64,000 nt of DNA from a bacterium (GCA_021786315.1 JAJYNN010000002.1:100160-164159), one strand, 5' to 3'. Counted from the stretch's first letter, positions 48,073 through 64,000 are shown. The notes: a model not told the origin generated them from the letters alone. Translations and numbers: made by a program.

Positions 48073-48112
<40 letters not shown>

Positions 48113-48845: not shown

Positions 48846-48963
48846 AATTTTCAAGTACCAATTACCAATTTACAATGAATTTTCAATGACCAAATGTTTT
48901 AAACATTTGAAAATTTAGACATTGAGATTTGTTTGAAAATTGAAAATTGAAAATTGGAATTTC
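48846..48963. repeat. AT-rich repeat insertion within 23S rRNA (between ...GTCCGTTGGACAAG and TCGTCCTTCGGACGAG...)
   Basis: gaaaattgaaaattgaaaattgg repeats plus the palindrome caaatgttttaaacatttg interrupt an otherwise conserved 23S helix. Confidence 0.6.
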
Positions 48964-50443: not shown

Positions 50444-50914
50444 TGAGCGAAATTCCTTGTCTGGTGAGTTCAGACCCGCACGAAAGGTAGAACGACTTAG
50501 CGACTGTCTTGAGGATAGACTCGGTGAAATTGCAGTGGCTGTGAAGATGCGGCCTTCCCATACTTGGACAAAAAGACCCCGTGGAGCTTTACTGCAGCTT
50601 GGCCCTGATTTGAAAACTTAACTGTGTAGTGTAGGAGGGAGATTCGTCGTCAATGAAACACCTCTCTTTTAAGTTTTTAAGTCTCAACCTTAGCCATAAA
50701 CTGGCAAGGCGACAAGGTCTGGCGGGCAGTTTAACTGGGACGGTTTCCTCCAAAAACGTAACGGAGGAGTACAAAGGTGCACTTAGATCGGATGGCAATC
50801 GATCGTAAAGCGTAAAAGTAAAGAGTGCGCTTGACTGTGAGACCTACAAGTCGAGCAGGTGCGAAAGCAGGTTTTAGTGATCCCTACTTACCTCATGGGA
50901 GGGAGTAGGCTTAT

Positions 50915-50948
<34 letters not shown>

Positions 50949-51223
50949 GATACCCAACAGTCCACAAGGACGGTATCGTTCGGCACCTCGATGTCGGCTC
51001 ATCGCAGCGTGGGGCTGTAGAAGGTCCCAAGCGTCTGGCTGTTCGCCAGTTAAAGCGGTACGCGAGCTGGGTTCAAACCGTCGTAAGACAGGTTGGACTC
51101 TATCCAGTATGGGCGTTTGAAACTTGAGGGGAGTTATCTTTAGTACGAGAGGACCGAGATGAGGAAACCTCTAGTGTGCCAGTTGTCCCAAAAGGGCAGC
51201 GCTGGGTAGCTACGTTTCTTTAT

Positions 51224-51254
<31 letters not shown>

Positions 51255-51424
51255 AGACCCCAAGATTAGGTTTCTTTATTAGACCCCTGGAAGACTACCA
51301 GGTTGATAGGTTGCCGGTGTAAGCATAGCAATGTGTTTAGCCTAGCAATACTAATGGTCAAAGTTGAGATTTTTTGGCTTGAAGCCTTTAGAAGTCGTAT
51401 TCACATTTTGAAGTAGCAAAGAAA

Positions 51425-51447
51425 AGCACCCCGTAAGGGGTGTTTTT
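51425..51447 (+). terminator. rho-independent terminator after 23S
   Basis: gcaccccgtaaggggtg followed by tttttt. Confidence 0.6.
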
Positions 51448-51477
51448 TGTGCCTAAAACAAAGAAAAGGTATGGTTT

Positions 51478-51650
51478 TTTAGTATGCGTCTTTGGTGGCA
51501 AAGACGCCCAAAGCCACTTTGACGGGAACGAGACCTAAATTTGTCTTGTTGCTAGTCGGGGCTCACCCCCTCGGAAATTCCCTTCGGTCAGTTTCCGGTT
51601 CCCCCTGACAGCAACTTCGTCAAATTTTTAACGGTCTCCTGTTCCAAGTC
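51478..51650. other. conserved non-coding element, copy 2 (see 13598-13770)
   Basis: gcgtctttggtggcaaagacgcccaaa...acctaaatt...ccccct...aatttttaacg. Confidence 0.4.
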
Positions 51651-51683
51651 AAAGAAAGAGGGGATAGATGATATACTAGATTT

Positions 51684-52262
51684 ATGTCTGCTCGAAACCG
51701 TGGTTTTACTCTGATAAGTCTACTTTTGCGACGCAAAAGATCTTGTCAAGGTTTCACCTTGATTGAACTCTTAGTTGTTATTTGTATTGTGGCAATCCTT
51801 GGTACCGTTGCTTTATTGGTTTATACCAATACTTTAAAAAGTGCCAGAATGGCAAAGAGAATTGGGGATTTGCAAAGTATTAATACGGCAATTGAATTGT
51901 ACCGGGATGAGAACAATCATTACCCAATTGCTACTAATTGGCGCTCTGAGTGTGCCAAAGGTGGTAATTTAAACCCCGATGATGTTGTCCCCGGATTAGT
52001 CCCTAAATATACCCGGATATTTCCTTCTGATCCCTTAATGGTTAAAAACACCAACTCTTCCTGTTATATGTATATCTCCAATGAAGATGGATCGGGATAT
52101 AAACTTTTGGATTATCAAATCAGTGAATTTACCCCCGCTGATTACTTAAAGGAGAGGGGGCTAATAGATCCGGCCCGGGATGGGGGATCGGATCCCTGCA
52201 AGGTGGACGGAGATTCACCGGAGGCCTGGGGTTTTTATACCTATAATGCCTGTGCCCTTTAA
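51684..52262 (+). CDS. type IV pilin / pseudopilin-like protein (prepilin N-terminal domain)
   Basis: QGFTLIELLVVICIVAILG matches the class III signal G|FTLIE. An upstream partial duplicate GFTLISLLL is present. Confidence 0.6.
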   Translation: MSARNRGFTLISLLLRRKRSCQGFTLIELLVVICIVAILGTVALLVYTNTLKSARMAKRIGDLQSINTAIELYRDENNHYPIATNWRSECAKGGNLNPDDVVPGLVPKYTRIFPSDPLMVKNTNSSCYMYISNEDGSGYKLLDYQISEFTPADYLKERGLIDPARDGGSDPCKVDGDSPEAWGFYTYNACAL

Positions 52263-52312
52263 AAGATTTAAGAATCTTAAATCTGCATTCCTAAATCTTA
52301 AATCTAGCTTAT
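52262..52312. repeat. AT-rich palindromic repeat family, half copy
   Basis: cttaaatctgcattcctaaatcttaaatctagc is nearly identical to the right arm of the 38326-38393 copy. Confidence 0.7.
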
Positions 52313-52375
52313 TTCAAGGAATGGTTTAGGATTAAATTACCCTTGATAATTGCCCAAAAGTTTGGTACACTAAAT

Positions 52376-52493
52376 GTCCGGTGATTTGAGCGGTGCGGAA
52401 CCACCCTTTCCCATTCCGAACAGGGTCGTGAAACACACCAGCGCAGACGATACTAGGGTCGAAAGGCCTCGGGACAATATGTCATTGCCGGGA
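52376..52493 (+). rRNA. rrf: 5S ribosomal RNA (3' boundary uncertain; a duplicated 3'-end segment follows)
   Basis: TGTCCGGTGATTTGAGCGGTGCGGAACCACCC...CCCATTCCGAACAGGGTCGTGAAAC aligns with the bacterial 5S 5' half. GTCATTGCCGGGA occurs at 52481 and again at 52569. Confidence 0.5.
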
Positions 52494-52590
52494 TTATCAT
52501 CAAATTTTCCCTAAAGGAAAATTAGATGTCTGGCAATGCCATGCGAGAACTAAAATCGTTCTCTAAAGTCATTGCCGGGATATACAAATA

Positions 52591-52620
52591 AACCTCCTAA
52601 ACGGAGGTTTTTTGTTCTTT
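52591..52620 (+). terminator. rho-independent terminator after 5S
   Basis: cctcc-taaac-ggagg hairpin followed by ttttttgttcttttt. Confidence 0.6.
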
Positions 52621-52631
52621 TTAAACCCTTG

Positions 52632-52739
52632 TATAAGCAGAGCTTGAAATCTTTGCTTCTCAAAAATTATAAGCAGAGCTTGAAATCTTTGCTTCTCAAA
52701 AATTATAAGCAGAGCTTGAAATCTTTGCTTCTCAAAAAT
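52632..52739. repeat. perfect tandem repeat, 36 bp x 3
   Basis: tataagcagagcttgaaatctttgcttctcaaaaat repeated three times with no spacers. Not CRISPR-like. Confidence 0.9.
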
Positions 52740-52740
52740 T

Positions 52741-53082
52741 ATGGAAGACTTGCCCAAAACATCCCTAGAATGTAATAAACTTGCCCCCAATATTGCCAGG
52801 GTGGTAAAACAGGTAGAAACAGCAACCATCTCCTTGGCTGAGCTTGCCCAAAAAGAAGGGGTCGATATGGGTGTTTTGGTAAAAATCTGGGCCAATTTGC
52901 CCCTGGATGAATCCCAGGGTATGACCTATCTGGAAATGGCTGGACAATGTATCCTGGAAGTTTCCGGAGCAGTCGATAAAGCTTTTCCCGGCCTATCTTA
53001 TGAGGAAAAGATCATTAAGAAATTTGAGCTGATGGCCGGGCTGCTCCTTTTAAAAGCTGAGCAGGTGAAACAAATCCGCTAG
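52741..53082 (+). CDS. hypothetical protein
   Basis: 113-aa ORF starting immediately after the tandem repeat. Confidence 0.35.
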   Translation: MEDLPKTSLECNKLAPNIARVVKQVETATISLAELAQKEGVDMGVLVKIWANLPLDESQGMTYLEMAGQCILEVSGAVDKAFPGLSYEEKIIKKFELMAGLLLLKAEQVKQIR

Positions 53083-53147
53083 GGCTTGAGAAATAATCCT
53101 GAACTTGTTACAATCTCCCCATCAAAACAAGAAAGAGGACTACATGA

Positions 53148-54245
53148 ATGAGCATGACCATGGCCGAGCTCTTGGCCAAAAACAATTCTAAACCTGTCAC
53201 TTTACACCGCGGGGAAGAGGTTGAAGGTAAAGTCATTAATATCACCCAAGATGAGATTATCCTTGATTTAGGCGCCAAAGCCGAAGGTGTTTTAAATAAA
53301 AAAGATCTCAATGCCGAAGATTTGGAGAAACTTAAAGTTGGCGATAAATTAAAGGCTTTTGTCAGCTCTCCCGAAACAGAATCCGGACAAGTTATCTTAA
53401 CCTTACACAAAGCCCTGACCCAACAGGGAGGAAAAAGGTTTACCGAAACCCTAAAGAGGTGGCAAAAGTTCTTAACCGCTGCCGGTAAACAGACTACCTT
53501 AACCGGCCAGGTGGTTGATTTGAACAAGGGTGGTTTGGTGGTGGATATTGACGGTATCCGGGGCTTTTTACCTGCTTCCCAGGTAGGGGTGGAAAATATG
53601 GGCGAAGAAGGTGCAGGGCTTTCCGGGATGGTGGGCAAGGACGTAACGGTTAATGTCATTGAGGCCGATCCGGCCAAAGGACGGTTAATCCTTTCCACCC
53701 GCAAGAAGCTATCCGAGGAAGCCCAGGCGAAATTGGCAAACTATAAACCGGGAGAGAAAGTGTCCGGTAAAGTTGCCGGGATTGTACCGTTTGGGCTTTT
53801 AATTAATTTAGATGGAGTTGAAGGGGTAGTCTATACCCAGGAAATTTCCTGGGAAGGTGATTTTTCCGGGGAAGGGGCGGAAGGGAAACTGGCGGAACAA
53901 TTCAAGGTTGGTCAAGAAATTGAAGCCAAAGTTTTAGGGGTGGATGAGGTTTTGGGAAGGGTTAAACTTTCTATTAAACAATTAACTGAAGACCCAATGG
54001 CCAAAATGCTGGAAAAATACCAGACTGATGACGTGGTTTCCGGGGAAATTACGGATGTAAACCAACAGGGTGTAACAGTTAAATTAAAAGACGGGGTAGA
54101 GGGGGTGCTTCCTGCTTCCAAGATGAAGGGGGAGTATGCAGTCGGACAAACAATGAACTTTTTGGTTGACAGCGTTGATGCCGGCAGACGCCGGGTAAAT
54201 CTGACTCCATTTATTACCTCCACTGAAGGCCTCATCTACAAATAA
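53148..54245 (+). CDS. rpsA: 30S ribosomal protein S1 (short, four S1 domains)
   Basis: Repeated S1 (OB-fold) modules of type GEEVEGKV...GxxGxL, GQVVDLNKGGLVVDIDGIRGFLPASQV and GEKVSGKVAGIVPFGLLINLDGVEG. Confidence 0.75.
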   Translation: MSMTMAELLAKNNSKPVTLHRGEEVEGKVINITQDEIILDLGAKAEGVLNKKDLNAEDLEKLKVGDKLKAFVSSPETESGQVILTLHKALTQQGGKRFTETLKRWQKFLTAAGKQTTLTGQVVDLNKGGLVVDIDGIRGFLPASQVGVENMGEEGAGLSGMVGKDVTVNVIEADPAKGRLILSTRKKLSEEAQAKLANYKPGEKVSGKVAGIVPFGLLINLDGVEGVVYTQEISWEGDFSGEGAEGKLAEQFKVGQEIEAKVLGVDEVLGRVKLSIKQLTEDPMAKMLEKYQTDDVVSGEITDVNQQGVTVKLKDGVEGVLPASKMKGEYAVGQTMNFLVDSVDAGRRRVNLTPFITSTEGLIYK

Positions 54246-54275
54246 TTTTAAATTTTAAAACTCAAATTTTAAAAT
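54243..54275. repeat. AT-rich repeat (aattttaaattttaaaactcaaattttaaaa) flanking the four-helix-bundle gene
   Basis: A partner copy cttaaaatttaaaatttagattta lies at 54648-54682 in inverted orientation. Confidence 0.55.
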
Positions 54276-54299
54276 AAACCTCAAAAAGGATGTCTAAAA

Positions 54300-54641
54300 T
54301 TATTTACTCTTTTCGACGATTTTAGAAAAAATGAGCGTCAATTCATGGGCTTCTGCCCAAAGTTCTCGGCATTCTGTTGTAAGACCTTCTTCTGTTTTTG
54401 CCAGGATTCTTAACCAGTATTTTGTTTCTCGGCATTCTTTGCGGCAAATACAAGCCTTATTATTAAAATCTCTCTTTGAAGAAGCCCCGTTTGCTTCCAT
54501 ATAATTTGCACCGATACTAGTTCCTGACCGTACTAATTGACTAATAATAGGAGTGACTATGGTATTTTTCGGAGCTCTTTTGCACAGTCCAATTACTTTT
54601 TCTGCAAAAACAGCACATCTTTCTTCCAGGTCATATTTCAT
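54300..54641 (-). CDS. four-helix-bundle protein (23S rRNA-intervening-sequence protein family, TIGR02436-like)
   Basis: SGTSIGANYMEANGASSKRDFNNKACICRKECRETKYWLRIL matches the conserved core of this family. Confidence 0.6.
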   Translation of the reverse strand: MKYDLEERCAVFAEKVIGLCKRAPKNTIVTPIISQLVRSGTSIGANYMEANGASSKRDFNNKACICRKECRETKYWLRILAKTEEGLTTECRELWAEAHELTLIFSKIVEKSK

Positions 54642-54647
54642 AGACTT

Positions 54648-54682
54648 ATTTTATAACTTAAAATTTAAAATTTAGATTTATC
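54648..54682. repeat. AT-rich repeat, inverted partner of 54243-54275
   Basis: cttaaaatttaaaatttagatttatc. Confidence 0.55.
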
Positions 54683-57600
54683 ATGGTTTACTGTCCACGA
54701 TCCACCAGTCGAAGGTGATGTCCTGGGCTTGGGCCTGGTTAAGCTGGACTGTAAATGACTGGCCAACACTCTTGGAGGAAACACCCAGGGTTACCGGCTG
54801 GTGGGGGGTGAGGAAGATCCTGGAAGTGGCGGTAACCTGGTCGGTATTTACAATCAGGGTTGTTTGTCCGGCAGGGATAGTGGCAGTGGACAAAGTTTGG
54901 GAGGAGACCTCTACTTTTTGAACACTTATCTTACCCGTATTGTCGATTTGGGCTTTCCCATTGAAGAAATCAACCAGCGTTGCCAACGGTGAATTCTGGA
55001 TAAACAAGGCGCCGATGGAGTTGACGGAGTTGCCGGTCAAAGACATTGTTCCGTCAACTGTGAAATCGCCGGCAATAGTGGTGCTGGCCAAAGAGGTAGT
55101 ACCCAAAGATTTGAAGGTATCGGAGATTGTCGCCTGGTAGGCGGTCAGTTGTCCGGAGATTGTTGCCTCGGAAGCCACTGAAAGGTTAGCCAAAACAGCG
55201 GAACCGGTGGCCAGCAGCACATCCGGGGAGGTCAGCTTTAAGTTATCGACATCGGATTGGACTTTGGCCAATTGGGCGGAAGTTGAGGCCAGCTGAGCGG
55301 AGTTGGAAGCCAACTGGGCAGAAGTGGAAGCAATTTGGGCCGAGGAGGAAGCAATTTGGGCTGATAACACATCCGCTTGGGCTTGAACCGCGGCCAGTTG
55401 GGTATCAATGGTCTTTAAGGTGGAAGCTACCTCAATATAGTTGGTTCCTGCCTGGTACTGGATGGCGGAAGTGGAGGCAACCGGCTGGCCGGAAGCAGTT
55501 AAGCCTGAGGAATCCAGGGAGTTGTCGGCCACCTTAAGTTCGCCTGAAATGGTCGCTTCACTGGTGACTGCAATCTGGTCTACCTTAAGAGACGGGGTTT
55601 GCAGTGACCCATTGGTATTGACACTTAAGTTGAAGCTGGAGACTTGGGCCACGTAGCTGTTAATCTCATCCTGTTGTTCTTTAACTGAATTAATAAGCCC
55701 AAAAGTCAAGGCTCCGTAGTTTACCTCTTTCACCTGGGTTAGAGTTGTATCGGTCGGATAAAGTTGTACCTCCCTGGTGCTTACAAGTTGGGGCGCCACC
55801 TGTTCTACCTGCTGGGCAATAAGACCTGATTTGATATTCCCGTCGTCAAGCGTTCCCCCAAGGCCGTTGTATTGGAAAGTTACGGGGTTGAGGCCGAGTA
55901 TTTCTTTCAGGCCGAGGTTAACGGGATTAATGTTCTTTTTCAGCCTGATATCAGATAAACAGGCTCCTAATGTCCCGCCGTTGTAAGTAAGGCATCCCTG
56001 GATGGATCCATTTCCTGCAGAATCTACGATAAACCGATTTGTGCCGTTTATTTGCATGATAATTTGTCCGCTGGCATTTCCATTGGCTATATACCAAAGA
56101 CTTCTTTCTGTTCCAATGCCGGCACCGTTTACCCTGGTTTCACCCTGAGAGTCATGGACAACAAGCGGCGCTACTGCATTCGGCATTGTTGTTCCGATAT
56201 AAACATTTCCGGAGGCATAAGCATTTCCGCTGACGTTAAGGCCGGCGGAATTTACTACGCCATTCTTTTGTACTGTGAACGGGTAAGAGTTCCAGGCGGC
56301 GTTACCGAGGGTAATGGCGTTATACGTTGGATTAGTGTCATTGCCGGGCTGGATGCGGATAATATCTGTTCCGGTGTTGTTGTAGGCATAAAGGGATGTT
56401 GCCCTGGCTGTTCCGGCTACATCTAGTGCAGTTCCCGGAGTTCCTACTCCGATACCTACACCTCCTGTGCCGCCACTGGTTTGGAGTAACAAATAGCCTG
56501 CACCTTTTGAATCAAGCATAAGGTTATTGGTTGCATTGGTACCACTCTCATAAATATGGTTATATCCAATGTTTACTGATTGGGTTGAATTAAGGGGCAG
56601 GACTGATAAGTAAGCTTCAGTCCCATTAGTTGGGCTTTGAATTGTCAGTACTGATCCCGGATTGGTAGTCCCAATACCCACATTACCTGAGTTTTTGAAT
56701 GTTACCTTATCTGACCACCCTCCGCCATCTGTACGGATTGCGACGTCATTGCCGTTACCCAGTATTTTTGTTACTCCACCTTCTATACCAAATTGAGCAT
56801 ACTTAGTTGCATTATTAGAATCATGTAACCGGATCCAGTTATCTCCAGTAAAGGACAAATCTAGTTTGTAGCCTGGACTAGTTGTCCCGATACCCACATT
56901 GCCCCCGGCAGCTATTGTCATCTTGATTGAATCATTGGTTCCGATATTGACAGGGTGGTTGCTGTAAGTCCAAAGATTCATGGCTCCTGGGCCCAGTCCG
57001 TCAGTACCGCCGTTAAGAGACAGGTATCCATTAATTGTGCCGGTGGTACTATAGAGGTGCATTTGCGAGTACTGGCTGGTTGGACCCTGGACATAAATGG
57101 CATCGTTTGAATCCACAGATGACCGGGTTGTTCCTCCAAACATAGCAAGTCCGTTAACATTAAATTTGACCAGAGGGCTCGTTGTTCCAATACCCACATT
57201 CCCGGTAAAGTAGGAGTTGCCACTGCCGCTAACAGCCAGTGTCCCGCCGACGGTTAAATTACCGGAGTTAGATAGGGACATAATCGCGTTATCCAGATTT
57301 CCGGCTGTCCCATCCACCCAGCGGAAGCCTGCGCTGGAAGTTTCACCGCTGACAAATGATAACCAGTCAGCCCTGTTGCTGTATACACCTATAAATGGTG
57401 TGCCCCAACTGGAAGTGGGGAATTTGATATAGTTCAGGTTATCAACCCTGATATTCCCATTAACTTCCAGCTTCTCTCCAGGACTGGTTGTCCCAATACC
57501 CACATTGCCAGCAAATGAGCTGCTGCCTGACCCTTGAACTGTAAGTGTACCAAGTAAAGTTGCATTTCCTTGAGTTCCGGCATTGTAATCAGTGCTGACA

Positions 57601-60600
57601 CTAAATACAGTTGATTGTGAACTACCGTTATTCCCCCGGAATTGAATCTTAGTTCCGCTACCATAAACTCCATTATCAAGATCCAAGTAATTAGAGCTAT
57701 CAAAGGTTAATACGTTTCGGGCGATAGCATCTGATCCTTTCCACTGAATGGGTTGGTTATTATCAAGTAGCAAAGCCCCTCCTACAACCTGAAGCTTAGT
57801 TGTGGGACTTGTTGTCCCGATACCAACATTACCATTGGTAAGTCTCATTACCTCGGCCGAGTTGGCTTTAAGCGCTAGGGCTGTATTGTTATTGCCGATA
57901 TCACCAATACCAATTGGCCCTCCTCCGGGGAAGTTAAGGACACCTCCGCCGTTGACGTTGAGTTGGGTGCTAGCATTGATGGTCCCCTTGACATCCAAGG
58001 CAACCTGAGGACTGGTTGTCCCAATACCCACATTGCCGCTGCTGGTAATTCTAAGCCGTTCATGTTGGCTATTATCTTGGTCTACATTAAAAGACATAAA
58101 TGTATCTATATTGGAACCGGTTCCCCAATCAGCAGCCTCTTTTCCTACTCTTATCCATGCCCCGTTTAGTTGTCTTGTATCGGGCGAAAACTGAATTCCT
58201 GCTGTCTGAGTGGTGGTGTTGGATTGGTCTGAATTAGCTATACGGATACCACTAACATTGCCTGTTGCTGTATTGGTTATATCGAGAAATTGTCCCGGAC
58301 TGGTTGTCCCAATACCCACATTGCCGCTGATATACATTTGAGGATCCGCATTGTAGGCAGTGGTAACTTTGAAGTAGCCGTTGCCGGAAGATCCGGTGGC
58401 GGAGATTAAATTACCCGTATTGGCTGAGGAAAGAACGATGTTGGCTCCCGTATTTGTTCCGGCGCCGGTAGCAATATACAAACCGCTCATATTGCCGCTG
58501 CCCGGACCACTTATCCTAAGCGCATAACCGGAAGAGTTGTTGCCCAGGATATCTAATACCGCTCCCGGGCTGGTTGTGCCTATACCTACATTACCGTTAC
58601 CCTGAACAAGAAACTTTGTGTCGGGAGTTCCGTCTGCATCAACTGTCAGTTTTAGGAGATTAAAGGCTGAGCTGGCTGTTCTGTAGGCTTCGCCTCGGAT
58701 CAGGTCGCTGGCAAATGCCGAGCCGTCAGTAGCAATTACCTGTAGTCCGGGATTACCTTGCCCACTAAACACAGAGATCAAAGGAGCAACAGAGATGGTG
58801 GAAGGCTCCGTAGTTTGGGTAGTGGCAATTAAACTCTTACCGGCTGAGTCATAGAAGTTACTTGTACCCACCACATCTAATTTGTAACTTGGGTTGGTTG
58901 TCCCGATACCCACATTGCCGTTTGTATCTACCCTCATTCTTTCTGCAGCCACTCCACCGTTGTTTGTATTGAAGATAAGGTTTGAGATACCGGAACTATA
59001 TCCGATATTAAGGTTTGATCCGTTAAGTTCAAGCGAACCAATTTCCGCTAGCCTTAGTAGTCCGCTGCCTCCGGAAGTTCCCACATTGATGATGTCGTTG
59101 CCCCGTACATCAAGCGTGTAGGTTGGGTTGGTTGTCCCGATACCCACACTACCACCTGTTTTGATATACATACTAGCAGAGGTACCTTCTTTAAATTGCA
59201 TATCTTTACCTGAAGCGGTAATGAGAGTGGTAATATCGCTGGTATCTTTTCCAAGTAGAGCCCTGATAGTCCCGCCACTATCTTTAGCTCCGTAGTAATT
59301 TCCATTAGCTATAACTAAAGAGTTGGCGTCAGCTCCTCCGGTAGCCAGTTCCAGTTTGGCCAAGGGTGCAGTTGTGCCTATACCTACATTACCTGATTTA
59401 ATAATCCTGATCCTATCCTGAAGACTTGAACCATCTGTTAAGGATAAAGAGATATATGGTTCATCAGGAACAGCTCCAGTTGGCCTTCCGTAGGCTTTAA
59501 ACTGAGCCATAGCGGTACCGCTGGAACTAAAATTAATTGTTTTTGGCGATTCGCCATAATCATTATCAATAGTTAAAGTTGTGCCTGATGTAGTAGCGGC
59601 TCCTTTTAGGTGTAGTAGGCTTGTTGGTGCAGTTGTGCCTATACCCACATTACCACCAGATTTAATAATCATGTTAGTAACTGTTCCTCCGCCTCCACCC
59701 TGGAAATAAACATCATTTGCAAAATCTCTTCCGAAATAGATTGGGTTACTACTTGGATTATCGATGTTAAATCCATTACTCCAAGCCCTAAATCTACCTT
59801 GATCTACATCGGAATTGTTAGCAACAAATACGTCACCTCTATTTACTCTTAGGGCAGAAACTCCTGAGGTGCCCAATACTTGCAAATTTGAATTCGGTCC
59901 AGTTGTCCCAATACCCACATTCCCATATCTATCGATAACCATTCTGGGAGAGGGTGTAGTCAGGCCAGTGGCAAGGACAATATCCCTATTGTAGGTAGTA
60001 ACCCGGGGCTGGATAATGAGATTCCCGCTTTCTGCAAAAGGATAACTTGAACCGTTACCAGCTGAGTTATAAATCAAAGGAGCAACACTGGTGTTGTATG
60101 AGCTGGTGGAACCAGTTAGCTGAAGGTAACCATTAGCATTTATATTCCCATTTACATCAAGATTGTATCCCGGATTAGTTGTACCAATACCTACATTCCC
60201 GTTGTCCATGATGACAAATTTATCAACGCTATTGTTGTCCTGGGTGCGGAAAGTAAAGCCTGTGGTGGTGCCGGCACCCTTAACTTGTAACTTGGCAGTT
60301 GCATCACCTGAACCGGCACCGCCTACCATTACATTGTTGGCTGAGCCAATGGAGATTGCCCCCTGGTTGCTGGAGGCGGTGTAGGTGAGGTTTAATCCAT
60401 AACCGTTGGTAAAAATATCACCCCGTTGGGTAGTATTATCGATAAAGACTATCTGGGAGCTGTCGCTTGTGCTGGCTGAGTTGATAGTGATTCGGGGATC
60501 ACTGCCCTTTAGGAGTATCCCGGCATTTCTATTAGCGTTTACTACATGAAGAGTATCAGTAGGACTGGTTGTCCCAATACCTACATTACCAGCTGAGGTT

Positions 60601-63600
60601 AGAGTCATGCCAACTGCTGAATTTCCGCCTAATTCAAGATTTCCTACACCAACAACTCTTAAGTCATTAGAGGCAGTGCCTGCACCTATACTTCCTCTGT
60701 TAGTCAAAATATAGGAAGTATCATTTCTGATAGAACCACCCACTACGTGTAGTAAAGCTGAAGGAGCAGTTGTGCCTATACCAACATTTCCGTTGCTGCT
60801 TTGGATAAACATTCTACTAACGTTGGCCGGGGCAAAGGAAATATCTCCATCTCCACCTCCACCTCCATTGCCTGTAACAAGCCTTAAGTCACCAGTAGTT
60901 TCTATTTCCTGATGGCCTGCACTTAAACCATCGTTAGTGTTATTTATACTGGGGGACATCTTTAGTGCTCTACTTACATCAGAACGGACCAGACGGAAGT
61001 AAATAGAATCAGCATTGGCTGCATCCATCTCTAGTTTTGCTAAAGGACTGGTTGTCCCAATACCTACATTGCCACCAGTGGCATTTAACAAGGTATTATT
61101 GCCTCCATAATTAATGGCTAGAGGCTGGGAATCATAGGATTGGATAAGCTTAAATGAATCAAGTTTTCCAATTAATAACCCAACCCCCACGCTTCCTTGC
61201 GCTGGGACGCTTGTCCCAAAGGAAGTTGTATTGATACCAACATCTGTTCCTACCGAAAGAAGAACTTTTGGATTGGTGTTTCCGATACCAATGTTGCCGG
61301 CGGAGTTAATTCTCATTCTTTCGGTTACATTGGTATCCCCGGGGGCTGTAGTGCGGAAGACTATGGCTCCAGGCATGGAAGTGGCTGAAGTAACCCCGTC
61401 TATATCAAAGTCTATTCTGGCTGCGGACAGGAAACTGCTAACACCGTCACTTCCTCTACCAATCAACATCATGATGTGGCTGTTGGCTGCGGGTAACGCG
61501 TGAACGCCTTCGGTGTCGCTTGCCGATTTATTAAATACCAAAACCGCGCTGCCGGTGTTGTTCCACCAGTTGTTCATGGCTATTCCGCCATAAGTGGTGG
61601 GTTGATTATTAAGTTCCATTAGCTCTGATAGCCCTCCTGTACTGTATTTTTGATTTCCATTGATAAACACATTACCGGAAGAATTAACCTGGAATAAATT
61701 ATTTGTTCCGACCGAGAGGAGACTTCCGGGGCTTGTTGTCCCAATACCCACATTACCGGTTGCATCTATAGCTAACCGGGATGCATCGTTGGTGGCCAGG
61801 ATTAAGGAATTACTGTCTGCAGTGCCAACTGCTAAAGTAGCAGCACCACTGGTTATGAAAGCGTTGCCAGCTTTATTTATGCCAAGACTCGTTCCGGCGT
61901 AGGAGGCGCCGTAGACATTTTGATTAAGGTATGCACTAGTGGAGTATTGAACTGAAGTGCTGGCAAATCCAGAAGCGTTATCGTTTTGTACCTTAGATCT
62001 GACCACATCAGCCGTGTTTCCATAAACTTGGAGTTGGTAAGCTGGGCTGGTTGTTCCAATACCTATATTACCATTGGAGGCAATCCTCATTTGCTCAGTA
62101 CCCCCGGTGGCAAGGTTTAAAGTATTAGCTTCTGAGGTGAAGATTCCTGTGTCTGTGTCACTGCTGAAGGTAAAGGTTGGGACTGATGCAGAACCGTTGC
62201 CTGCTCTTAGTGCGTTGGCAAGCGTTGCATAGCCGTCTTTTCTAACGGCAAATTGGGTAGCGCTTCCTACCTGCAAATCAATAAGATTGGAAGCAGCTCC
62301 GGAGGATGTATCAGTAACATTTAGTTTGATGCCGTTTTTAGTACCTGCATCGTTCCAGGTTACAGTGGCATTCATGACTGGGATATCTGAGGTGATGGTA
62401 CCTAAAGCAATATCCAGCTTTGCTCCCGGACTTGTTGTCCCGATACCCACATTACCTGATCCGATACCATTTGTTATAGAAAGACCGGAATTGAGAGTGA
62501 ATTGTTTGTTGGTAATATCCCAACTCATTAGGGCGTTGGGGGTGGCAGTCCCTCTCTCGAAGATCAGGTTCATCGCCTCAGCGTCATCCGTAGCATTATC
62601 AGCATTAATAGTCCAATCGTTGGAGTTGGTACTCCCGCCGACAACTACACCGATCAAGGAAGTGGCGTTGACAGTATCCGCATAAACCGTGCCAAACTTG
62701 GTGCCGGCATCACCGATATTGATGTTGCCGGTGGAGGCGGTAATGGCTCCGGTTACCTGGGTGGCTCCCAGCCGGGCATTGCCGTTGACATCCAGTTTAT
62801 AAATTGGGGCGGTGGTGGCAATGCCGATATTGCCGTTACTCTCTATTGTGATACCATTTGTTGCGGAACCTCCGGTGGTAAGCCTTAATGTATTACCGGT
62901 AAGTCGGTATAGCCCGGTATCGGTGTCTCCGGTAAAAGATAGGGCGGGTGTGGATGCTGTTCCGTCAGGTAAAAGGGTATAGCCGGAGGAATTAACCTGG
63001 AACAGGTCTCCGTTTCCTACTACGAATAAAGCAGCTGGGGAACTGTCGTTAATTCCCACATTTCCGGCTCCGGTAATAGTCATTCGGGTATTGCCTGTCT
63101 GGGTGGTGTTGTTAGTAGCGGTATTAAAGTTAATATTGGTAACGGCATTCATGGTGTTTCTGCCTCCGCCCAAAGTCATTGCTCCGTTATCAGAAAAGAC
63201 CAGACCGTAAGGCTCTTCTCCGGCAAGATTATGCCTGGCAGCAAGACCGCCCCATCTGCTAGTTCCGTCACCAGCAGCTCCGCTGCCGACTGTCAAAACG
63301 GGGGTGCCGTTGGGGTTGTAAATAATCGGGTCAGCACTGATATCGATCACCGTTTGGTTATCTGACCTTTTAATGAGGCCGGTGGAGATTTGGATGCTGC
63401 CTATAACATGCAGAGCAGAAGATGGCGAAGTGGTACCTACCCCGACGTTGCCGGTAAAGTAGGAGGCTCCGGAGCCGTTAACGTTTAGCACTCCGGCAAC
63501 TTGGGTGATAGCGTTGTTGATGGTAGCGGTGCCAGTTGCGGCTCCCAGGGAGATGGAAGTGGCCGCACCGCCGATATTGAGGGCAGTGGCGTTGGCATTA

Positions 63601-64000
63601 AACAAACTGGCGGTGGCGGCAGTAGTGGAAAGCGTTCCGCCGCTTACTGCTAGGTTTTCGGAAAAGGTGCCCGATCCGGTGATATCCAAGGCGGTTGCGG
63701 GGGAGGTGGTTCCAATACCGACGTTACCGCTGGTGTTAATGGTCACTCCGTTGCCGGCAGTACCCCCGGTAATTAAGGCGATGGTGTTGGAATCCAGCCT
63801 GTATAACCCGGAATCGGTGTCGTTGGTAAACCTTAGTGCCGGGGAGGCAGCTGTACCGTCAGGTAGGGAAACAAAATTTCTGAACCTGGTGGATCCGGCA
63901 ATATCCAGATTGTTATTGATTGTTGTAGTTCCTGAAGAAGCCCCGATATTTACCGCGGTAGCGGCTCCACCGAAATTGATGGTGGTAGCAGTATCGTTGA
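54681..64000 (-). CDS. giant repetitive surface/fibre protein (more than 3,100 aa, 5'-partial). 40 or more NVGIGTTSP-type repeats, an internal Peptidase_S74-like intramolecular chaperone motif, a SAQIAS coiled coil and a C-terminal domain.
   Basis: The ORF stays open to the window end. The annotated M at 63746 is an in-frame GTG inside the repeat series. The S74 signature ACLSDIRLKKNINPV is encoded at about 55925-55965. The coiled coil reads AQADVLSAQIASSSAQIASTSAQLASNSAQLASTSAQLA. Confidence 0.7.
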   Translation of the reverse strand, partial: NDTATTINFGGAATAVNIGASSGTTTINNNLDIAGSTRFRNFVSLPDGTAASPALRFTNDTDSGLYRLDSNTIALITGGTAGNGVTINTSGNVGIGTTSPATALDITGSGTFSENLAVSGGTLSTTAATASLFNANATALNIGGAATSISLGAATGTATINNAITQVAGVLNVNGSGASYFTGNVGVGTTSPSSALHVIGSIQISTGLIKRSDNQTVIDISADPIIYNPNGTPVLTVGSGAAGDGTSRWGGLAARHNLAGEEPYGLVFSDNGAMTLGGGRNTMNAVTNINFNTATNNTTQTGNTRMTITGAGNVGINDSSPAALFVVGNGDLFQVNSSGYTLLPDGTASTPALSFTGDTDTGLYRLTGNTLRLTTGGSATNGITIESNGNIGIATTAPIYKLDVNGNARLGATQVTGAITASTGNINIGDAGTKFGTVYADTVNATSLIGVVVGGSTNSNDWTINADNATDDAEAMNLIFERGTATPNALMSWDITNKQFTLNSGLSITNGIGSGNVGIGTTSPGAKLDIALGTITSDIPVMNATVTWNDAGTKNGIKLNVTDTSSGAASNLIDLQVGSATQFAVRKDGYATLANALRAGNGSASVPTFTFSSDTDTGIFTSEANTLNLATGGTEQMRIASNGNIGIGTTSPAYQLQVYGNTADVVRSKVQNDNASGFASTSVQYSTSAYLNQNVYGASYAGTSLGINKAGNAFITSGAATLAVGTADSNSLILATNDASRLAIDATGNVGIGTTSPGSLLSVGTNNLFQVNSSGNVFINGNQKYSTGGLSELMELNNQPTTYGGIAMNNWWNNTGSAVLVFNKSASDTEGVHALPAANSHIMMLIGRGSDGVSSFLSAARIDFDIDGVTSATSMPGAIVFRTTAPGDTNVTERMRINSAGNIGIGNTNPKVLLSVGTDVGINTTSFGTSVPAQGSVGVGLLIGKLDSFKLIQSYDSQPLAINYGGNNTLLNATGGNVGIGTTSPLAKLEMDAANADSIYFRLVRSDVSRALKMSPSINNTNDGLSAGHQEIETTGDLRLVTGNGGGGGDGDISFAPANVSRMFIQSSNGNVGIGTTAPSALLHVVGGSIRNDTSYILTNRGSIGAGTASNDLRVVGVGNLELGGNSAVGMTLTSAGNVGIGTTSPTDTLHVVNANRNAGILLKGSDPRITINSASTSDSSQIVFIDNTTQRGDIFTNGYGLNLTYTASSNQGAISIGSANNVMVGGAGSGDATAKLQVKGAGTTTGFTFRTQDNNSVDKFVIMDNGNVGIGTTNPGYNLDVNGNINANGYLQLTGSTSSYNTSVAPLIYNSAGNGSSYPFAESGNLIIQPRVTTYNRDIVLATGLTTPSPRMVIDRYGNVGIGTTGPNSNLQVLGTSGVSALRVNRGDVFVANNSDVDQGRFRAWSNGFNIDNPSSNPIYFGRDFANDVYFQGGGGGTVTNMIIKSGGNVGIGTTAPTSLLHLKGAATTSGTTLTIDNDYGESPKTINFSSSGTAMAQFKAYGRPTGAVPDEPYISLSLTDGSSLQDRIRIIKSGNVGIGTTAPLAKLELATGGADANSLVIANGNYYGAKDSGGTIRALLGKDTSDITTLITASGKDMQFKEGTSASMYIKTGGSVGIGTTNPTYTLDVRGNDIINVGTSGGSGLLRLAEIGSLELNGSNLNIGYSSGISNLIFNTNNGGVAAERMRVDTNGNVGIGTTNPSYKLDVVGTSNFYDSAGKSLIATTQTTEPSTISVAPLISVFSGQGNPGLQVIATDGSAFASDLIRGEAYRTASSAFNLLKLTVDADGTPDTKFLVQGNGNVGIGTTSPGAVLDILGNNSSGYALRISGPGSGNMSGLYIATGAGTNTGANIVLSSANTGNLISATGSSGNGYFKVTTAYNADPQMYISGNVGIGTTSPGQFLDITNTATGNVSGIRIANSDQSNTTTQTAGIQFSPDTRQLNGAWIRVGKEAADWGTGSNIDTFMSFNVDQDNSQHERLRITSSGNVGIGTTSPQVALDVKGTINASTQLNVNGGGVLNFPGGGPIGIGDIGNNNTALALKANSAEVMRLTNGNVGIGTTSPTTKLQVVGGALLLDNNQPIQWKGSDAIARNVLTFDSSNYLDLDNGVYGSGTKIQFRGNNGSSQSTVFSVSTDYNAGTQGNATLLGTLTVQGSGSSSFAGNVGIGTTSPGEKLEVNGNIRVDNLNYIKFPTSSWGTPFIGVYSNRADWLSFVSGETSSAGFRWVDGTAGNLDNAIMSLSNSGNLTVGGTLAVSGSGNSYFTGNVGIGTTSPLVKFNVNGLAMFGGTTRSSVDSNDAIYVQGPTSQYSQMHLYSTTGTINGYLSLNGGTDGLGPGAMNLWTYSNHPVNIGTNDSIKMTIAAGGNVGIGTTSPGYKLDLSFTGDNWIRLHDSNNATKYAQFGIEGGVTKILGNGNDVAIRTDGGGWSDKVTFKNSGNVGIGTTNPGSVLTIQSPTNGTEAYLSVLPLNSTQSVNIGYNHIYESGTNATNNLMLDSKGAGYLLLQTSGGTGGVGIGVGTPGTALDVAGTARATSLYAYNNTGTDIIRIQPGNDTNPTYNAITLGNAAWNSYPFTVQKNGVVNSAGLNVSGNAYASGNVYIGTTMPNAVAPLVVHDSQGETRVNGAGIGTERSLWYIANGNASGQIIMQINGTNRFIVDSAGNGSIQGCLTYNGGTLGACLSDIRLKKNINPVNLGLKEILGLNPVTFQYNGLGGTLDDGNIKSGLIAQQVEQVAPQLVSTREVQLYPTDTTLTQVKEVNYGALTFGLINSVKEQQDEINSYVAQVSSFNLSVNTNGSLQTPSLKVDQIAVTSEATISGELKVADNSLDSSGLTASGQPVASTSAIQYQAGTNYIEVASTLKTIDTQLAAVQAQADVLSAQIASSSAQIASTSAQLASNSAQLASTSAQLAKVQSDVDNLKLTSPDVLLATGSAVLANLSVASEATISGQLTAYQATISDTFKSLGTTSLASTTIAGDFTVDGTMSLTGNSVNSIGALFIQNSPLATLVDFFNGKAQIDNTGKISVQKVEVSSQTLSTATIPAGQTTLIVNTDQVTATSRIFLTPHQPVTLGVSSKSVGQSFTVQLNQAQAQDITFDWWIVDSKP
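56880..63740. repeat. intragenic imperfect tandem repeats (period about 250-330 nt) with a recurring conserved ~24-mer ggttgtcccgatacccacattgcc
   Basis: The 24-mer and close variants recur at roughly 56886, 57190, 57490, 57822, 58020, 58308, 58900, 59132, 59905, 60180, 60570, 61050, 61738, 62052 and 62432. Confidence 0.75.

What the first reader, a model, noticed from the sequence alone, without database searches (positions are those of the whole stretch)
54681..64000. Giant protein of more than 3,100 aa with NVGIGTTSP repeats, an internal phage-tail-fibre S74 chaperone motif and a SAQIAS coiled coil
A single minus-strand ORF runs out of the window. The listed Met at 63746 is an in-frame GTG, and the same repeat continues upstream. 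Its body consists of 40 or more degenerate repeats of about 70-100 aa centred on (R/S)xxxSGNVGIGTT(S/N/A)P. At the DNA level these appear as tandem repeats with a conserved ~24-mer. About 415 aa from the C-terminus lies GACLSDIRLKKNINPV...GLNPVTFQYN...GLIAQQVEQVAP, which matches the Ser-Asp-x-Arg-Leu-Lys-x-Asn signature of Peptidase_S74. S74 is the C-terminal intramolecular chaperone of endosialidase tailspikes and of T5-type tail fibres. Here it is followed by a heptad coiled coil (SAQIAS)n and a further domain of about 200 aa instead of ending the protein. That arrangement suggests a trimeric fibre with a released or retained distal domain. In an episymbiotic CPR-type cell this is a strong candidate for a host-attachment fibre or a domesticated phage-tail module.
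Basis: partly seen in the sequence, partly recalled or inferred. Interest (0 to 1): 0.85.

Follow-up and report, generated by a model that had tools for sequence, protein, structure and literature searches.

The report
Membrane-anchored self-cleaving fibre of a CPR bacterium
The giant gene encodes a 3,559-residue, phage-tail-fibre-like surface fibre of an ultrasmall (CPR) bacterium, anchored in the membrane by a DNA-binding domain plus one transmembrane helix and ending in a self-cleaving cap; it belongs to a large, undescribed protein family and is a plausible tool for recognising host cells.

Summary
An uninterrupted minus-strand ORF fills 54681-64000 (3,105 codons). It has 27-28 GNVGIGTTSP motifs (not 40 or more), a Peptidase_S74 domain well above Pfam's cut-off with an intact Ser-x4-Lys dyad, five SAQ(I/L)AS heptads and a further 188-aa domain.

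An identical 3,559-aa database protein supplied the missing 454 residues. They are a MerR-type helix-turn-helix and one transmembrane helix, with no signal peptide.

The repeats are homologous to the crystallised trimeric beta-helix fibres of Bdellovibrio (MAT superfamily; Bd2133, E 4e-34) and to phage tail fibres. The flanks are housekeeping genes, with no prophage or secretion system in what I could read.

The terminal module defines a family of about 4,000 cluster representatives. It is always C-terminal, and the named members are almost all Microgenomates-type CPR bacteria. About two-thirds of full-length members start with HTH plus TM. The module usually follows an autoproteolytic chaperone domain, S74-type or Peptidase_G2-like.

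Best reading: a membrane-anchored trimeric fibre whose C-terminal 424 aa register and fold the trimer and are then cut off. This is a new variant of a known kind. Host binding, cleavage and the role of the HTH are untested.

The parts
54681..64000 (-). C-terminal 3,105 codons plus the stop codon of a 3,559-aa gene. The first 454 codons (MerR-type HTH at aa 17-65, TM at about aa 172-198, membrane-proximal stalk) lie beyond the window edge, at what would be 64001-65360.
56079..64000 (-). Fibre body (fragment aa 1-2640): an all-beta region carrying 27-28 copies of the motif (E)RMRI-x3-GNVGIGTTSP-x3-L-x-V. Motif cores lie between 56181 and 63728, spaced 67-153 aa.
   Evidence: motif and chance control; homologues; model and match to the Bdellovibrio MAT fibres Bd2133, Bd1334, Bd3182 and Bd2439
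55650..55997 (-). S74-type intramolecular chaperone and autoprotease domain (fragment aa 2668-2783, full-length 3122-3237). It is preceded by a Cys-x10-Cys loop (CLTYNGGTLGAC).
   Evidence: pLDDT about 93; MyRF ICA 7dc3, endoNF 3gw6
55938..55955 (-). Predicted catalytic dyad and cleavage site, SDIRLK: Ser3136 (55953-55955) and Lys3141 (55938-55940). S, D and K are invariant in the alignment of 17 S74 domains.
55431..55649 (-). Linker between the S74 domain and the coiled coil (fragment aa 2784-2856). Model confidence is low. The first part (SLKVDQIAVTSEATISG) is conserved in module-bearing relatives.
55242..55430 (-). Long helix (fragment aa 2857-2919) containing five SAQ(I/L)AS heptads. These appear as 21-nt DNA repeats at 55267-55361. 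It is a presumed trimeric coiled coil.
   Evidence: (helix q218-280, pLDDT 82-93)
54684..55247 (-). Conserved terminal module (last 188 aa), the signature of a family of about 4,000 cluster representatives. Its last ~70 aa (54693-54893) form a beta-sandwich of the kind found at the end of phage tailspikes.
   Evidence: K1-lyase_C in relatives; pLDDT about 96; 7eea, 9k4a, 7w1c

Best explanation
The ORF is most of a 3,559-aa chromosomal gene of a Microgenomates-type CPR bacterium. It encodes a membrane-anchored, trimeric surface fibre of the phage-tail-fibre or MAT type.

Shown by sequence and homology:
- The domain order is MerR-type HTH (aa 17-65), one TM helix (about aa 172-198), about 2,900 extracellular residues with 27-28 GNVGIGTTSP motifs, an S74 chaperone/autoprotease with Ser3136 and Lys3141, a linker, a heptad helix, and a 188-aa module ending in a tailspike-type beta-sandwich.
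- The repeats are homologous to fibres that are intertwined trimeric beta-helices in crystal structures.

Inferred:
- The TM acts as a signal-anchor. The HTH stays in the cytoplasm and the rest is exported.
- Three chains are brought into register at their C-termini by the coiled coil, the terminal module and the S74 domain. The beta-helix then folds from the C-terminal end toward the N-terminus, as in phage tailspikes.
- The Ser-Lys dyad then cuts in front of Ser3136 and releases a 424-aa trimeric cap. This leaves a fibre of very roughly 0.2 micrometre, scaled from Bd3182.
- The exposed tip binds a surface structure of a host cell.
For: The full-length protein and locus were recovered, with 0 mismatches to the window.

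Domains:
- MerR HTH: E 2e-12, and it aligns to the CueR, SoxR, TnrA, TipA and BldC DNA-binding domains.
- TM: a Kyte-Doolittle peak at aa 171, with K and R on the N-terminal side.
- S74: above the Pfam cut-off.

S74 profile matches to solved structures:
- S16 tail fibre, E 2e-12.
- MyRF ICA, E 5e-12.
- T5 pb1, E 6e-7.
- GA-1, E 7e-5.
The S74 part of the model also matches MyRF ICA and endoNF by fold.

Repeat profile matches to solved structures, with the same ERMRI..GNVGIGT..P...L.V motif:
- Bd2133, E 4e-34.
- Bd1334, E 3e-18.
- Bd3182, E 6e-16.
- Bd2439, E 5e-11.
Foldseek's top hits are the same fibres.

Caulton et al. 2024 (PMC10769870) showed that those fibres are trimeric and surface-exposed. 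They also showed that one binds surface glycans of prey bacteria and that Bd3182 self-cleaves at the S74 serine.

The dyad is kept in all 28 related S74+module proteins whose site is visible.

In the module family the module follows an S74-type domain in 31 of 159 proteins and a Peptidase_G2-like chaperone domain in 78 of 159.

The flanks are housekeeping genes. The protein is identical in at least three assemblies, and its repeat cores differ mostly at synonymous sites.
Against: - No experiment exists for this protein or any CPR relative. Trimer formation, cleavage, surface display and ligand are all inferred.
- Only monomers could be modelled. The repeat model is moderate (pLDDT 68), and residues 290-390 of the C-terminal model are poor.
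- If the cap is simply discarded, its strong conservation needs another explanation. It persists in relatives that lack any recognised chaperone domain, for example P0016.
- The HTH has no role in this model.
- Host attachment rests on analogy with Bdellovibrio and phages.
- The assignment of the second pre-module domain to Peptidase_G2 rests on 4 of 18 sequences scanned; none of the 18 was scored against Pfam's cut-off.
Confidence: 0.6

Rival explanations
1. Contact sensor or regulator. The protein is a membrane-bound one-component regulator with ToxR/CadC-like topology. The extracellular fibre senses binding or pulling by a host cell, and the cytoplasmic MerR-type HTH changes its DNA binding in response. 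This could coexist with adhesion.
For: - A genuine MerR-type DNA-binding domain sits at the N-terminus, followed by one TM.
- HTH plus TM is found in 57 of 87 apparently full-length family members, and the shorter ones often carry two tandem HTHs.
- NCBI names two of the shorter members 'MerR family DNA-binding transcriptional regulator'.
- A two-component pair lies within about 6 kb upstream.
Against: - No target site, regulon or signalling route is known.
- The MerR dimerisation helix and effector domain are absent.
- A trimeric fibre does not fit the usual MerR dimer.
- S74 cleavage occurs about 2,900 residues from the membrane on the outside, so unlike MyRF it cannot free the HTH.
Confidence: 0.15
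2. Retained tip. The S74 domain serves only as a trimerisation chaperone here, and the coiled coil plus terminal module remains attached as the distal adhesive tip.
For: - The module is displayed without any chaperone domain in some relatives, for example P0016 (HTH, TM, module).
- Its last 70 aa resemble the C-terminal beta-sandwiches of the Pam1 tailspike and of capsule depolymerases.
- Bdellovibrio non-S74 MAT fibres carry beta-sandwich tips in place of the chaperone.
Against: - The Ser-x4-Lys dyad and the Asp are intact here, and the dyad is kept in all 28 related S74+module proteins with a visible site.
- According to the cited papers and my own knowledge, tested S74 domains with this dyad self-cleave (endoNF, T5 pb1, Bd3182, MyRF).
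Confidence: 0.15
3. Envelope scaffold. The fibre is a structural surface layer or spacer of the CPR cell, or serves self-aggregation, and has no role in host recognition.
For: - CPR cells carry many very large surface proteins of unknown role (PMC8080830; PMC13059738).
- The gene takes about 1.1% of a genome of roughly 0.9 Mb or less.
Against: Every characterised relative of the repeat plus S74 arrangement is a receptor-binding fibre, in phages or in Bdellovibrio.
Confidence: 0.07
4. Phage gene, pseudogene or assembly artefact. The ORF is a prophage tail-fibre gene or a spurious, decayed repeat array.
For: PHROGs tail-fibre families match strongly (E 8e-88 and 4e-66), and the repeats match cyanophage, pelagiphage and Thermus phage fibres at 25-32% identity.
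Against: - No phage structural, integrase or lysis genes were seen in the flanking genes that were annotated, about 8.5 kb upstream and about 17 kb downstream. The rest of the window was not annotated.
- The neighbours are RadA, ribosomal protein S1 and rRNA genes.
- An HTH plus TM anchor is not a virion feature.
- The module is absent from 50,697 phage records, and a close-relative scan of IMG/VR also found nothing.
- There are no stops in 3,559 codons, the sequence is identical in several assemblies, and the variation in the repeat cores is mostly synonymous.
Confidence: 0.03

Closest known systems
Bdellovibrio bacteriovorus MAT (mosaic adhesive trimer) fibres, S74 subgroup, e.g. Bd3182 (Caulton et al. 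2024, PMC10769870)
   Same: - A cellular, non-phage fibre built from the same repeat, with the ERMRI..GNVGIGT..P...L.V motif (profile E 4e-34 to 5e-11; top fold hits).
- An S74 chaperone/protease with the SDxxxK motif.
- Produced by a bacterium that lives off other bacteria.
   Different: - MAT fibres have a signal peptide and a conserved ~130-aa N-terminal domain. This protein has a MerR-type HTH plus a TM anchor.
- In MATs the S74 domain ends the protein. Here 322 more residues follow it.
- This protein is three to four times longer.
- The organism is a CPR bacterium, not a Gram-negative predator.
Phage tail fibres and tailspikes with a C-terminal intramolecular chaperone (K1F endosialidase 3GW6, T5 pb1 4UW8/8HQZ, S16 gp37 6F45)
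   Same: - S74 domain and catalytic Ser-Lys dyad.
- A beta-helical fibre upstream.
- PHROGs and tblastn similarity of the repeats to phage fibres.
   Different: - Not in a phage genome.
- Membrane-anchored rather than attached to a virion.
- The chaperone domain is internal.
- The post-S74 module was not found in phage records.
MyRF (myelin regulatory factor), a eukaryotic membrane-bound transcription factor with an ICA (S74) domain, PDB 7DC3
   Same: - Best fold match of the S74 domain (E 9e-5), and a profile match at E 5e-12.
- The S74 domain is internal.
- One chain combines a DNA-binding domain, a TM helix and a self-cleaving trimerisation domain.
   Different: - In MyRF the order is DNA-binding domain, S74, TM, so cleavage frees the transcription factor (my own knowledge). 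Here the order is HTH, TM, fibre, S74, so cleavage frees an extracellular cap and the HTH stays tethered.
- The DNA-binding fold differs: Ndt80-type in MyRF (my own knowledge), MerR-type here.
ToxR/CadC-type membrane-bound one-component regulators
   Same: The topology matches: a cytoplasmic N-terminal DNA-binding domain, a single TM and an extracytoplasmic C-terminal part.
   Different: - The HTH is MerR-type, not OmpR/PhoB-type.
- The outside part is a fibre of about 3,360 aa, not a small sensor domain.
- No evidence of signalling.
Peptidase_G2 intramolecular chaperone of phi29/GA-1-type pre-neck appendage proteins (PF11962)
   Same: In 78 of 159 module-family proteins the domain in front of the module is of one conserved type. 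Of 18 such sequences scanned, 4 match PF11962 (best E 1.6e-12). It occupies the place that S74 occupies in this protein.
   Different: It is not present in the window's protein, and the match is divergent (4 of 18 scanned; 5 of the 18 instead match PF23982 XM1_gp53_minor_capsid). It bears on the family-level reading only.
Trimeric autotransporter adhesins (YadA-like)
   Same: Long repetitive trimeric surface fibres. JGI labels some repeat relatives 'trimeric autotransporter adhesin', and some relatives carry YadA_head hits.
   Different: No YadA-type C-terminal beta-barrel anchor was found. Anchoring is by an N-terminal TM.

Membership tests
Peptidase_S74 / intramolecular chaperone (IMC, ICA) domain | Match to the family model above the curated threshold | tested here: met
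   PF13884, 50.2 bits against a cut-off of 22, E 3.1e-13, profile positions 1-57 of 58. A profile of the domain finds S16 gp37, MyRF ICA, T5 pb1 and the GA-1 appendage protein in the PDB.
Peptidase_S74 / intramolecular chaperone (IMC, ICA) domain | Catalytic Ser-x4-Lys dyad (SDxxxK) | tested here: met
   SDIRLK with Ser3136 and Lys3141. S, D and K are invariant in 17 aligned domains. The dyad is kept in all 28 related S74+module proteins with a visible site.
Peptidase_S74 / intramolecular chaperone (IMC, ICA) domain | The fold of the domain | tested here: met
   The AlphaFold2 model has pLDDT of about 93 over the domain. Foldseek finds MyRF ICA 7dc3 at E 9e-5 (TM-score on target 0.6) and endoNF IMC 3gw6. 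Phage IMC domains match in BFVD.
Peptidase_S74 / intramolecular chaperone (IMC, ICA) domain | The domain lies at the very C-terminus. This is usual in phages and Bdellovibrio but not universal, as MyRF shows. | tested here: not met
   322 residues follow the domain. In 7 of the 19 other S74 hits mapped, the match reaches within 8 residues of the protein's end.
Peptidase_S74 / intramolecular chaperone (IMC, ICA) domain | Trimerisation-dependent self-cleavage actually takes place | not testable with these tools
   Needs expression of the wild type and of S3136A.
MAT (mosaic adhesive trimer) fibre superfamily (Caulton et al. 2024) | Beta-helical fibre repeats with the capping-loop motif, homologous to Bd fibres | tested here: met
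   Repeat profile against PDB sequences: Bd2133 E 3.8e-34, Bd1334 2.8e-18, Bd3182 6.1e-16, Bd2439 5e-11. Foldseek's top hits are 8ond, 8oml and 8onc.
MAT (mosaic adhesive trimer) fibre superfamily (Caulton et al. 2024) | Signal peptide followed by the conserved ~130-aa beta-rich N-terminal domain | tested here: not met
   The N-terminus is a MerR-type HTH (aa 17-65) followed by a TM at about aa 172-198, with no N-terminal signal peptide. The 130-aa domain itself could not be compared, because no sequence of it was available.
MAT (mosaic adhesive trimer) fibre superfamily (Caulton et al. 2024) | Trimeric assembly displayed on the cell surface | not testable with these tools
   Only monomer prediction was available. 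Trimer formation is inferred from homology to crystal structures.
Phage tail fibre (virion component) | Encoded among phage structural genes | tested here: not met
   The flanks are RadA, a cupin, a two-component pair, ribosomal protein S1, rRNA genes, PGK and GAPDH.
MerR-family transcriptional regulators | N-terminal winged HTH of MerR type | tested here: met
   PF00376 E 2.1e-12 and PF13411 E 1.7e-8. It aligns to CueR, SoxR, TnrA, TipA and BldC.
MerR-family transcriptional regulators | Dimerisation coiled coil and C-terminal effector-binding domain directly after the HTH | tested here: not met
   The HTH is followed by a ~100-aa linker, a TM and the fibre. The name 'MerR family regulator' that NCBI gives two shorter members reflects the HTH only.
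Trimeric autotransporter adhesins | C-terminal YadA-type membrane-anchor beta-barrel | tested here: not met
   No YadA_anchor hit at E up to 1. The C-terminus is a soluble beta-sandwich.
CPR family defined by the 188-aa terminal module (unnamed) | The module at the extreme C-terminus | tested here: met
   The profile of 17 sequences finds 4,020 cluster representatives at E up to 1e-3 and 307 at E up to 1e-30. In nearly all of the 150 listed the match ends at or within a few residues of the protein end. The window's protein scores E 1.4e-75.
CPR family defined by the 188-aa terminal module (unnamed) | N-terminal MerR-type HTH plus a single TM | tested here: met
   Present in P0039, the full-length protein. 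Found in 57 of 87 apparently full-length members.

The most novel reading that the evidence does not exclude
Thousands of CPR proteins wire an extracellular, self-processing fibre directly to a cytoplasmic DNA-binding domain through a single membrane helix. Contact with a host cell would then be read out at the chromosome, either as contact-dependent gene regulation or as tethering of DNA to the attachment site. The conserved self-cleaving C-terminal cap would act as a safety catch or as a released signal. This would be a new kind of one-component host-contact sensor in episymbiotic bacteria.
Probability: 0.15. Interest if true: 0.85.

Novelty: new variant of a known kind. Interest (0 to 1): 0.62.

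Why it matters
How ultrasmall CPR/Patescibacteria find and hold their host cells is largely open. In the papers I searched, type IV pili are the main machinery implicated so far, alongside a type IV secretion system and adhesins required in a Tn-seq screen (PMC10633639); large surface proteins are otherwise only mentioned as candidates.

This locus gives a concrete, testable candidate. It is a fibre homologous to the prey-recognition fibres of Bdellovibrio and to phage receptor-binding fibres, and it has a predicted self-cleavage site that can be mutated.

It also brings to light a large family that my searches found undescribed, and of which NCBI labels two shorter members MerR regulators:
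- an HTH plus TM at one end;
- an autoproteolytic chaperone domain and a conserved cap at the other end;
- a swappable fibre in between.

If the fibre tips determine host range, they could be used to predict CPR-host pairs from metagenomes. They would also show that phages, predators and episymbionts share one solution for recognising bacterial surfaces.

Tried and rejected
Recovering the 5' end:
- The single genome-contig scan with the first 300 aa found only 35-49% relatives.
- An exact 60-mer from the window edge found nothing in metagenome contigs.
- Look-ups of two neighbouring proteins returned only a 2.6-kb Logan contig.
- The problem was solved indirectly. The representative search with the terminal module returned P0039, which is identical to the window. 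P0039 then gave contig L007.

Diversity-generating retroelement idea:
- The downstream gene is a 23S_rRNA_IVP four-helix-bundle protein, which is Avd-like from my own knowledge.
- I rejected the idea. No template/variable repeat pair was found in 51000-57500, and no reverse transcriptase appears among the annotated neighbours.

DNA-level tandem repeats:
- TRF sees none for the 70-150-aa units. The units are old and diverged, and only the motif core is conserved.

Searches that gave nothing useful:
- A single-sequence PDB search with the C-terminal 466 aa gave nothing meaningful. Profiles were needed.
- The first global alignment, A1, was unusable because the architectures were mixed. I replaced it with trimmed alignments A2, A3 and A5.
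- Pfam on the pre-module domain of P0013 and P0002 alone gave nothing. Scanning 18 members gave Peptidase_G2 for 4 of them. A PDB profile search for that domain found nothing.
- The module was absent from GenBank phages.
- Cluster look-ups for taxonomic names mostly returned no names.
- The afdb50 fold library was not available.

Polymorphic-toxin or CdiA-like reading (C-terminal effector released by autoproteolysis):
- Rejected, because the C-terminal module is conserved rather than variable (44% mean column identity).
- The gene downstream also differs in the two related loci examined (L004, L005).


Full report
**1. The observation**

The minus strand of 54681-64000 is one open frame. The ORF listing reports 54681..63746 with a GTG, and the same frame translates without a stop to the window edge, 3,105 codons.

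The motif G[NSG][VI][GY][IV][GAN], which is the core of GNVGIGTTSP, occurs 28 times. Twenty-seven of these are convincing. Spacing is 67-153 aa with a median of 92.

A degenerate 23-mer for the motif matches 22 times. All matches lie on the minus strand between 56665 and 63728, against 0 expected in 100 shuffles. The 30-nt cores are about 80% identical to their consensus and differ mostly at synonymous positions. The peptide, not the DNA, is what is conserved.

Tandem Repeats Finder does not report the long units. It reports only a 21-nt array at 55267-55361, which encodes the SAQ(I/L)AS heptads.

**2. The S74 domain**

Pfam's Peptidase_S74 matches fragment residues 2682-2739 at 50.2 bits against a cut-off of 22 (E 3.1e-13), covering profile positions 1-57 of 58.

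Mapping against homologues shows that the whole chaperone domain is about 110 aa (fragment 2677-2786). In 7 of the 19 other S74 hits mapped, the match reaches within 8 residues of the protein's end.

In an alignment of 17 such domains the Ser, Asp and Lys of SDxxxK are invariant. In full-length numbering they are Ser3136, Asp3137 and Lys3141.

A profile of the domain finds these solved structures:
- the S16 long tail fibre (6f45, E 2e-12);
- a tail fibre (8jov);
- the MyRF ICA domain (7dc3, E 5e-12);
- T5 pb1 (8hqz, E 6e-7);
- the GA-1 appendage protein (3gud, E 7e-5).

The AlphaFold2 model of the last 466 aa has pLDDT of about 93 over this domain. Foldseek's best PDB hit is MyRF ICA (E 9e-5), followed by the endosialidase chaperone 3gw6. 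Phage 'intramolecular chaperone auto-processing' proteins dominate the viral library.

A Cys-x10-Cys loop directly precedes the serine and recurs in the closest S74 homologues.

**3. What follows S74**

The model gives four regions:
- a poorly predicted linker;
- a confident 63-residue helix (q218-280, pLDDT 82-93) containing the heptads;
- a poorly predicted beta-rich stretch;
- a very confident terminal beta-sandwich (q397-463, pLDDT about 96).

The sandwich matches the C-terminal domains of the Pam1 cyanophage tailspike (7eea, 28% identity, rmsd 2.3 Å), a Klebsiella phage depolymerase (9k4a), the K1 capsule lyase (7w1c) and the Sf6 tailspike. In relatives it reaches Pfam's K1-lyase_C.

**4. 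The missing N-terminus and the locus**

Direct attempts to find the source contig failed.

A profile of the terminal 188 aa (A3) was then searched against 1.84 billion cluster representatives. It returned P0039, 3,559 aa, which is identical to the window over all 3,105 residues. Its gene was found on a 471-kb ENA contig (L007), with 0 mismatches to the window over 9,320 nt. The same protein is on record from contigs of up to 0.94 Mb.

The 454 missing residues contain three elements:
- a MerR-type HTH at aa 17-65 (PF00376 E 2e-12), which aligns to the DNA-binding domains of CueR, SoxR, TnrA, TipA and BldC;
- a ~100-aa linker;
- one hydrophobic helix at about aa 172-198, preceded by K and R.

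There is no signal peptide. The gene is 10.7 kb, at least 1.1% of the genome.

**5. Surroundings**

Upstream lie RadA, a cupin, an unknown gene and a response-regulator/histidine-kinase pair.

Downstream lie a 113-aa 23S_rRNA_IVP-family protein (54300-54641, same strand), ribosomal protein S1, 5S rRNA, a prepilin-like gene, a 23S rRNA carrying a LAGLIDADG ORF, GAPDH, PGK and further housekeeping genes.

I saw no phage structural genes and no secretion system, though genes before about 36 kb in the window were not annotated. No other ORF in the window carries the module, the S74 domain or this HTH.

Several lines of evidence fit a Microgenomates-type CPR bacterium:
- the 16S and 23S rRNA genes are unlinked and the 23S is interrupted;
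- the contigs are small;
- the named relatives are CPR bacteria (Daviesbacteria, Azambacteria, Shapirobacteria, Beckwithbacteria, Gottesmanbacteria and 'Patescibacteria group').

The organism itself was not named by any tool.

**6. What the repeats are**

PHROGs tail-fibre families match at E 8e-88 and 4e-66. tblastn finds cyanophage, pelagiphage and Thermus phage fibres at 25-32% identity.

A 391-aa repeat segment has at least 2,882 homologues from many phyla. Many of them end in PF13884, and some are named 'tail fiber domain-containing protein'.

The monomer model of that segment is all-beta, with mean pLDDT 68. Confidence is 85-93 at the motif cores and low in the variable loops.

Its best structural matches are the Bdellovibrio fibres Bd2133, Bd1334 and Bd3182. 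At sequence level the repeat profile hits Bd2133 (E 3.8e-34), Bd1334 (2.8e-18), Bd3182 (6.1e-16) and Bd2439 (5e-11). The alignments show the same ERMRId-sGNVGIGT-aP-akL-V motif.

Caulton et al. 2024 (PMC10769870) named these the MAT superfamily. They showed that:
- the fibres are intertwined trimeric beta-helices on the predator's surface;
- 13 of the 21 end in an S74 domain;
- Bd3182 cleaves itself at the S74 serine;
- one fibre binds surface glycans of prey bacteria.

This is the closest characterised relative. It supplies experimental support for the trimeric-fibre reading that I could not obtain by modelling.

**7. The family**

The terminal-module profile finds 4,020 cluster representatives at E up to 1e-3, 1,869 at E up to 1e-10 and 307 at E up to 1e-30. 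In nearly all of the 150 listed the match ends at or within a few residues of the protein end, and many proteins are 2,000-5,400 aa long.

Of 87 apparently full-length members among the best hits:
- 59 start with the MerR-type HTH, often in two copies;
- 57 have the HTH plus a TM;
- 37 have three or more GNVGIGT motifs;
- 21 have an S74 domain.

Directly in front of the module sits one of two domains:
- an S74-type domain, in 31 of 159 proteins;
- a ~175-aa domain with an (A/G)D(Y/L)AE(Y/W/N) motif, in 78 of 159. Of 18 such sequences scanned, 4 match Pfam's Peptidase_G2 'IMC autoproteolytic cleavage domain' (best E 1.6e-12); 5 of the 18 match PF23982 instead.

Two proteins have both domains. 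In all 28 S74+module proteins whose site is visible, the Ser-x4-Lys spacing is kept.

The middle of these proteins is variable. A Daviesbacteria relative mixes GNVGIGT repeats with FG-GAP repeats, LVIVD repeats and intein-like domains. An Azambacteria relative has HTH, TM, repeats, S74 and a different tail.

NCBI names two shorter members 'MerR family DNA-binding transcriptional regulator'. My literature searches found general remarks on giant CPR surface proteins but no description of this family.

**8. Mechanism**

Shown:
- the domain order;
- the intact dyad;
- the homology to trimeric receptor-binding fibres;
- the chromosomal, non-phage context.

Inferred:
- The TM acts as a signal-anchor, with the HTH inside the cell and about 3,360 aa outside.
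- The three chains are registered at their C-termini by the coiled coil, the terminal module and the S74 domain.
- The beta-helix folds from that end, as in tailspikes.
- The dyad cuts in front of Ser3136 and releases a 424-aa cap.
- The exposed tip binds a host surface ligand.

The length estimate scales from Bd3182 (about 550 Å for about 780 mature residues). It gives very roughly 0.2 micrometre and is a crude figure.

That an autoproteolytic chaperone of the S74 type, or a domain resembling the G2 type, precedes the module in most of the family is the main argument that the module belongs to the released part.

Two things are not explained. One is why a discarded cap is so conserved, and why it occurs without a chaperone domain in some short members. 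The other is what the HTH does.

**9. Verdict**

The object is a new variant of a known kind, an S74-type MAT or tail-fibre-like trimeric fibre. It has two features not described for that kind:
- a cytoplasmic MerR-type HTH plus a TM anchor;
- a conserved 320-aa extension after the chaperone domain.

Both features are shared by a large CPR family. Function in host attachment is plausible and directly testable, but unproven.

Noticed in passing
window 52632-52742: Three perfect tandem copies of a 36-nt unit (TATAAGCAGAGCTTGAAATCTTTGCTTCTCAAAAAT) end exactly at the ATG of a 113-aa ORF (52741-53082, +). Each unit junction reads TTGAAA, 17 nt, TTATAA, like a sigma-70 promoter. The otherwise identical ENA contig L007 has only two copies, so copy number varies between assemblies.
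   Followed up: partly
window 47576-51374 (ORF 49755-50366): The 23S rRNA gene spans about 3.8 kb against a 2,925-nt model. It contains an ORF with a LAGLIDADG homing-endonuclease domain (E 5e-26), which suggests an intervening sequence or intron in the rRNA.
   Followed up: partly
window 34884-36338, 47576-51374, 52377-52493: The rRNA genes are unlinked. The 16S lies 11 kb from the 23S, with protein genes (GH18, S11 peptidase, a methyltransferase, PGK, GAPDH) and tRNAs in between. A prepilin-type gene (51684-52262, N_methyl motif) sits between the 23S and the 5S.
   Followed up: partly
window 54300-54641 (-): A 113-aa protein of the 23S_rRNA_IVP four-helix-bundle family lies 39 nt downstream of the giant gene on the same strand and may be co-transcribed. 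From my own knowledge this fold resembles the Avd protein of diversity-generating retroelements. No reverse transcriptase or template/variable repeat pair was found nearby.
   Followed up: partly
L004 57-18625 (Candidatus Daviesbacteria, JACPKL010000008.1): Two overlapping giant ORFs (at least 1,711 aa, open at the locus start, and 4,509 aa) mix GNVGIGT repeats with FG-GAP repeats, LVIVD repeats and several intein/Hint domains inserted after '...GALHVVGQC'. The ORF break falls in an arginine-rich stretch, so it may be a frameshift, a sequencing error or a real split.
   Followed up: partly
related proteins P0013, P0002 and 76 others (not in the window): In most members of the terminal-module family the module is preceded not by S74 but by a ~175-aa domain with an (A/G)D(Y/L)AE motif. 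Four of the 18 such sequences scanned match Peptidase_G2, the phi29/GA-1-type autoproteolytic chaperone. P0060 and P0147 carry both domains.
   Followed up: yes
P0001 (391 aa, 1.6-kb contig): This protein joins the N-terminus of ribosomal protein L10 (PF00466) directly to the coiled coil and terminal module. It is probably an assembly or gene-calling chimera.
   Followed up: no
L007 1208-4275 (upstream of the gene, outside the window): A histidine kinase and a response regulator, with two small ORFs between them, lie 4-7 kb upstream of the giant gene on the opposite strand. Any link to the fibre's HTH is unknown.
   Followed up: no
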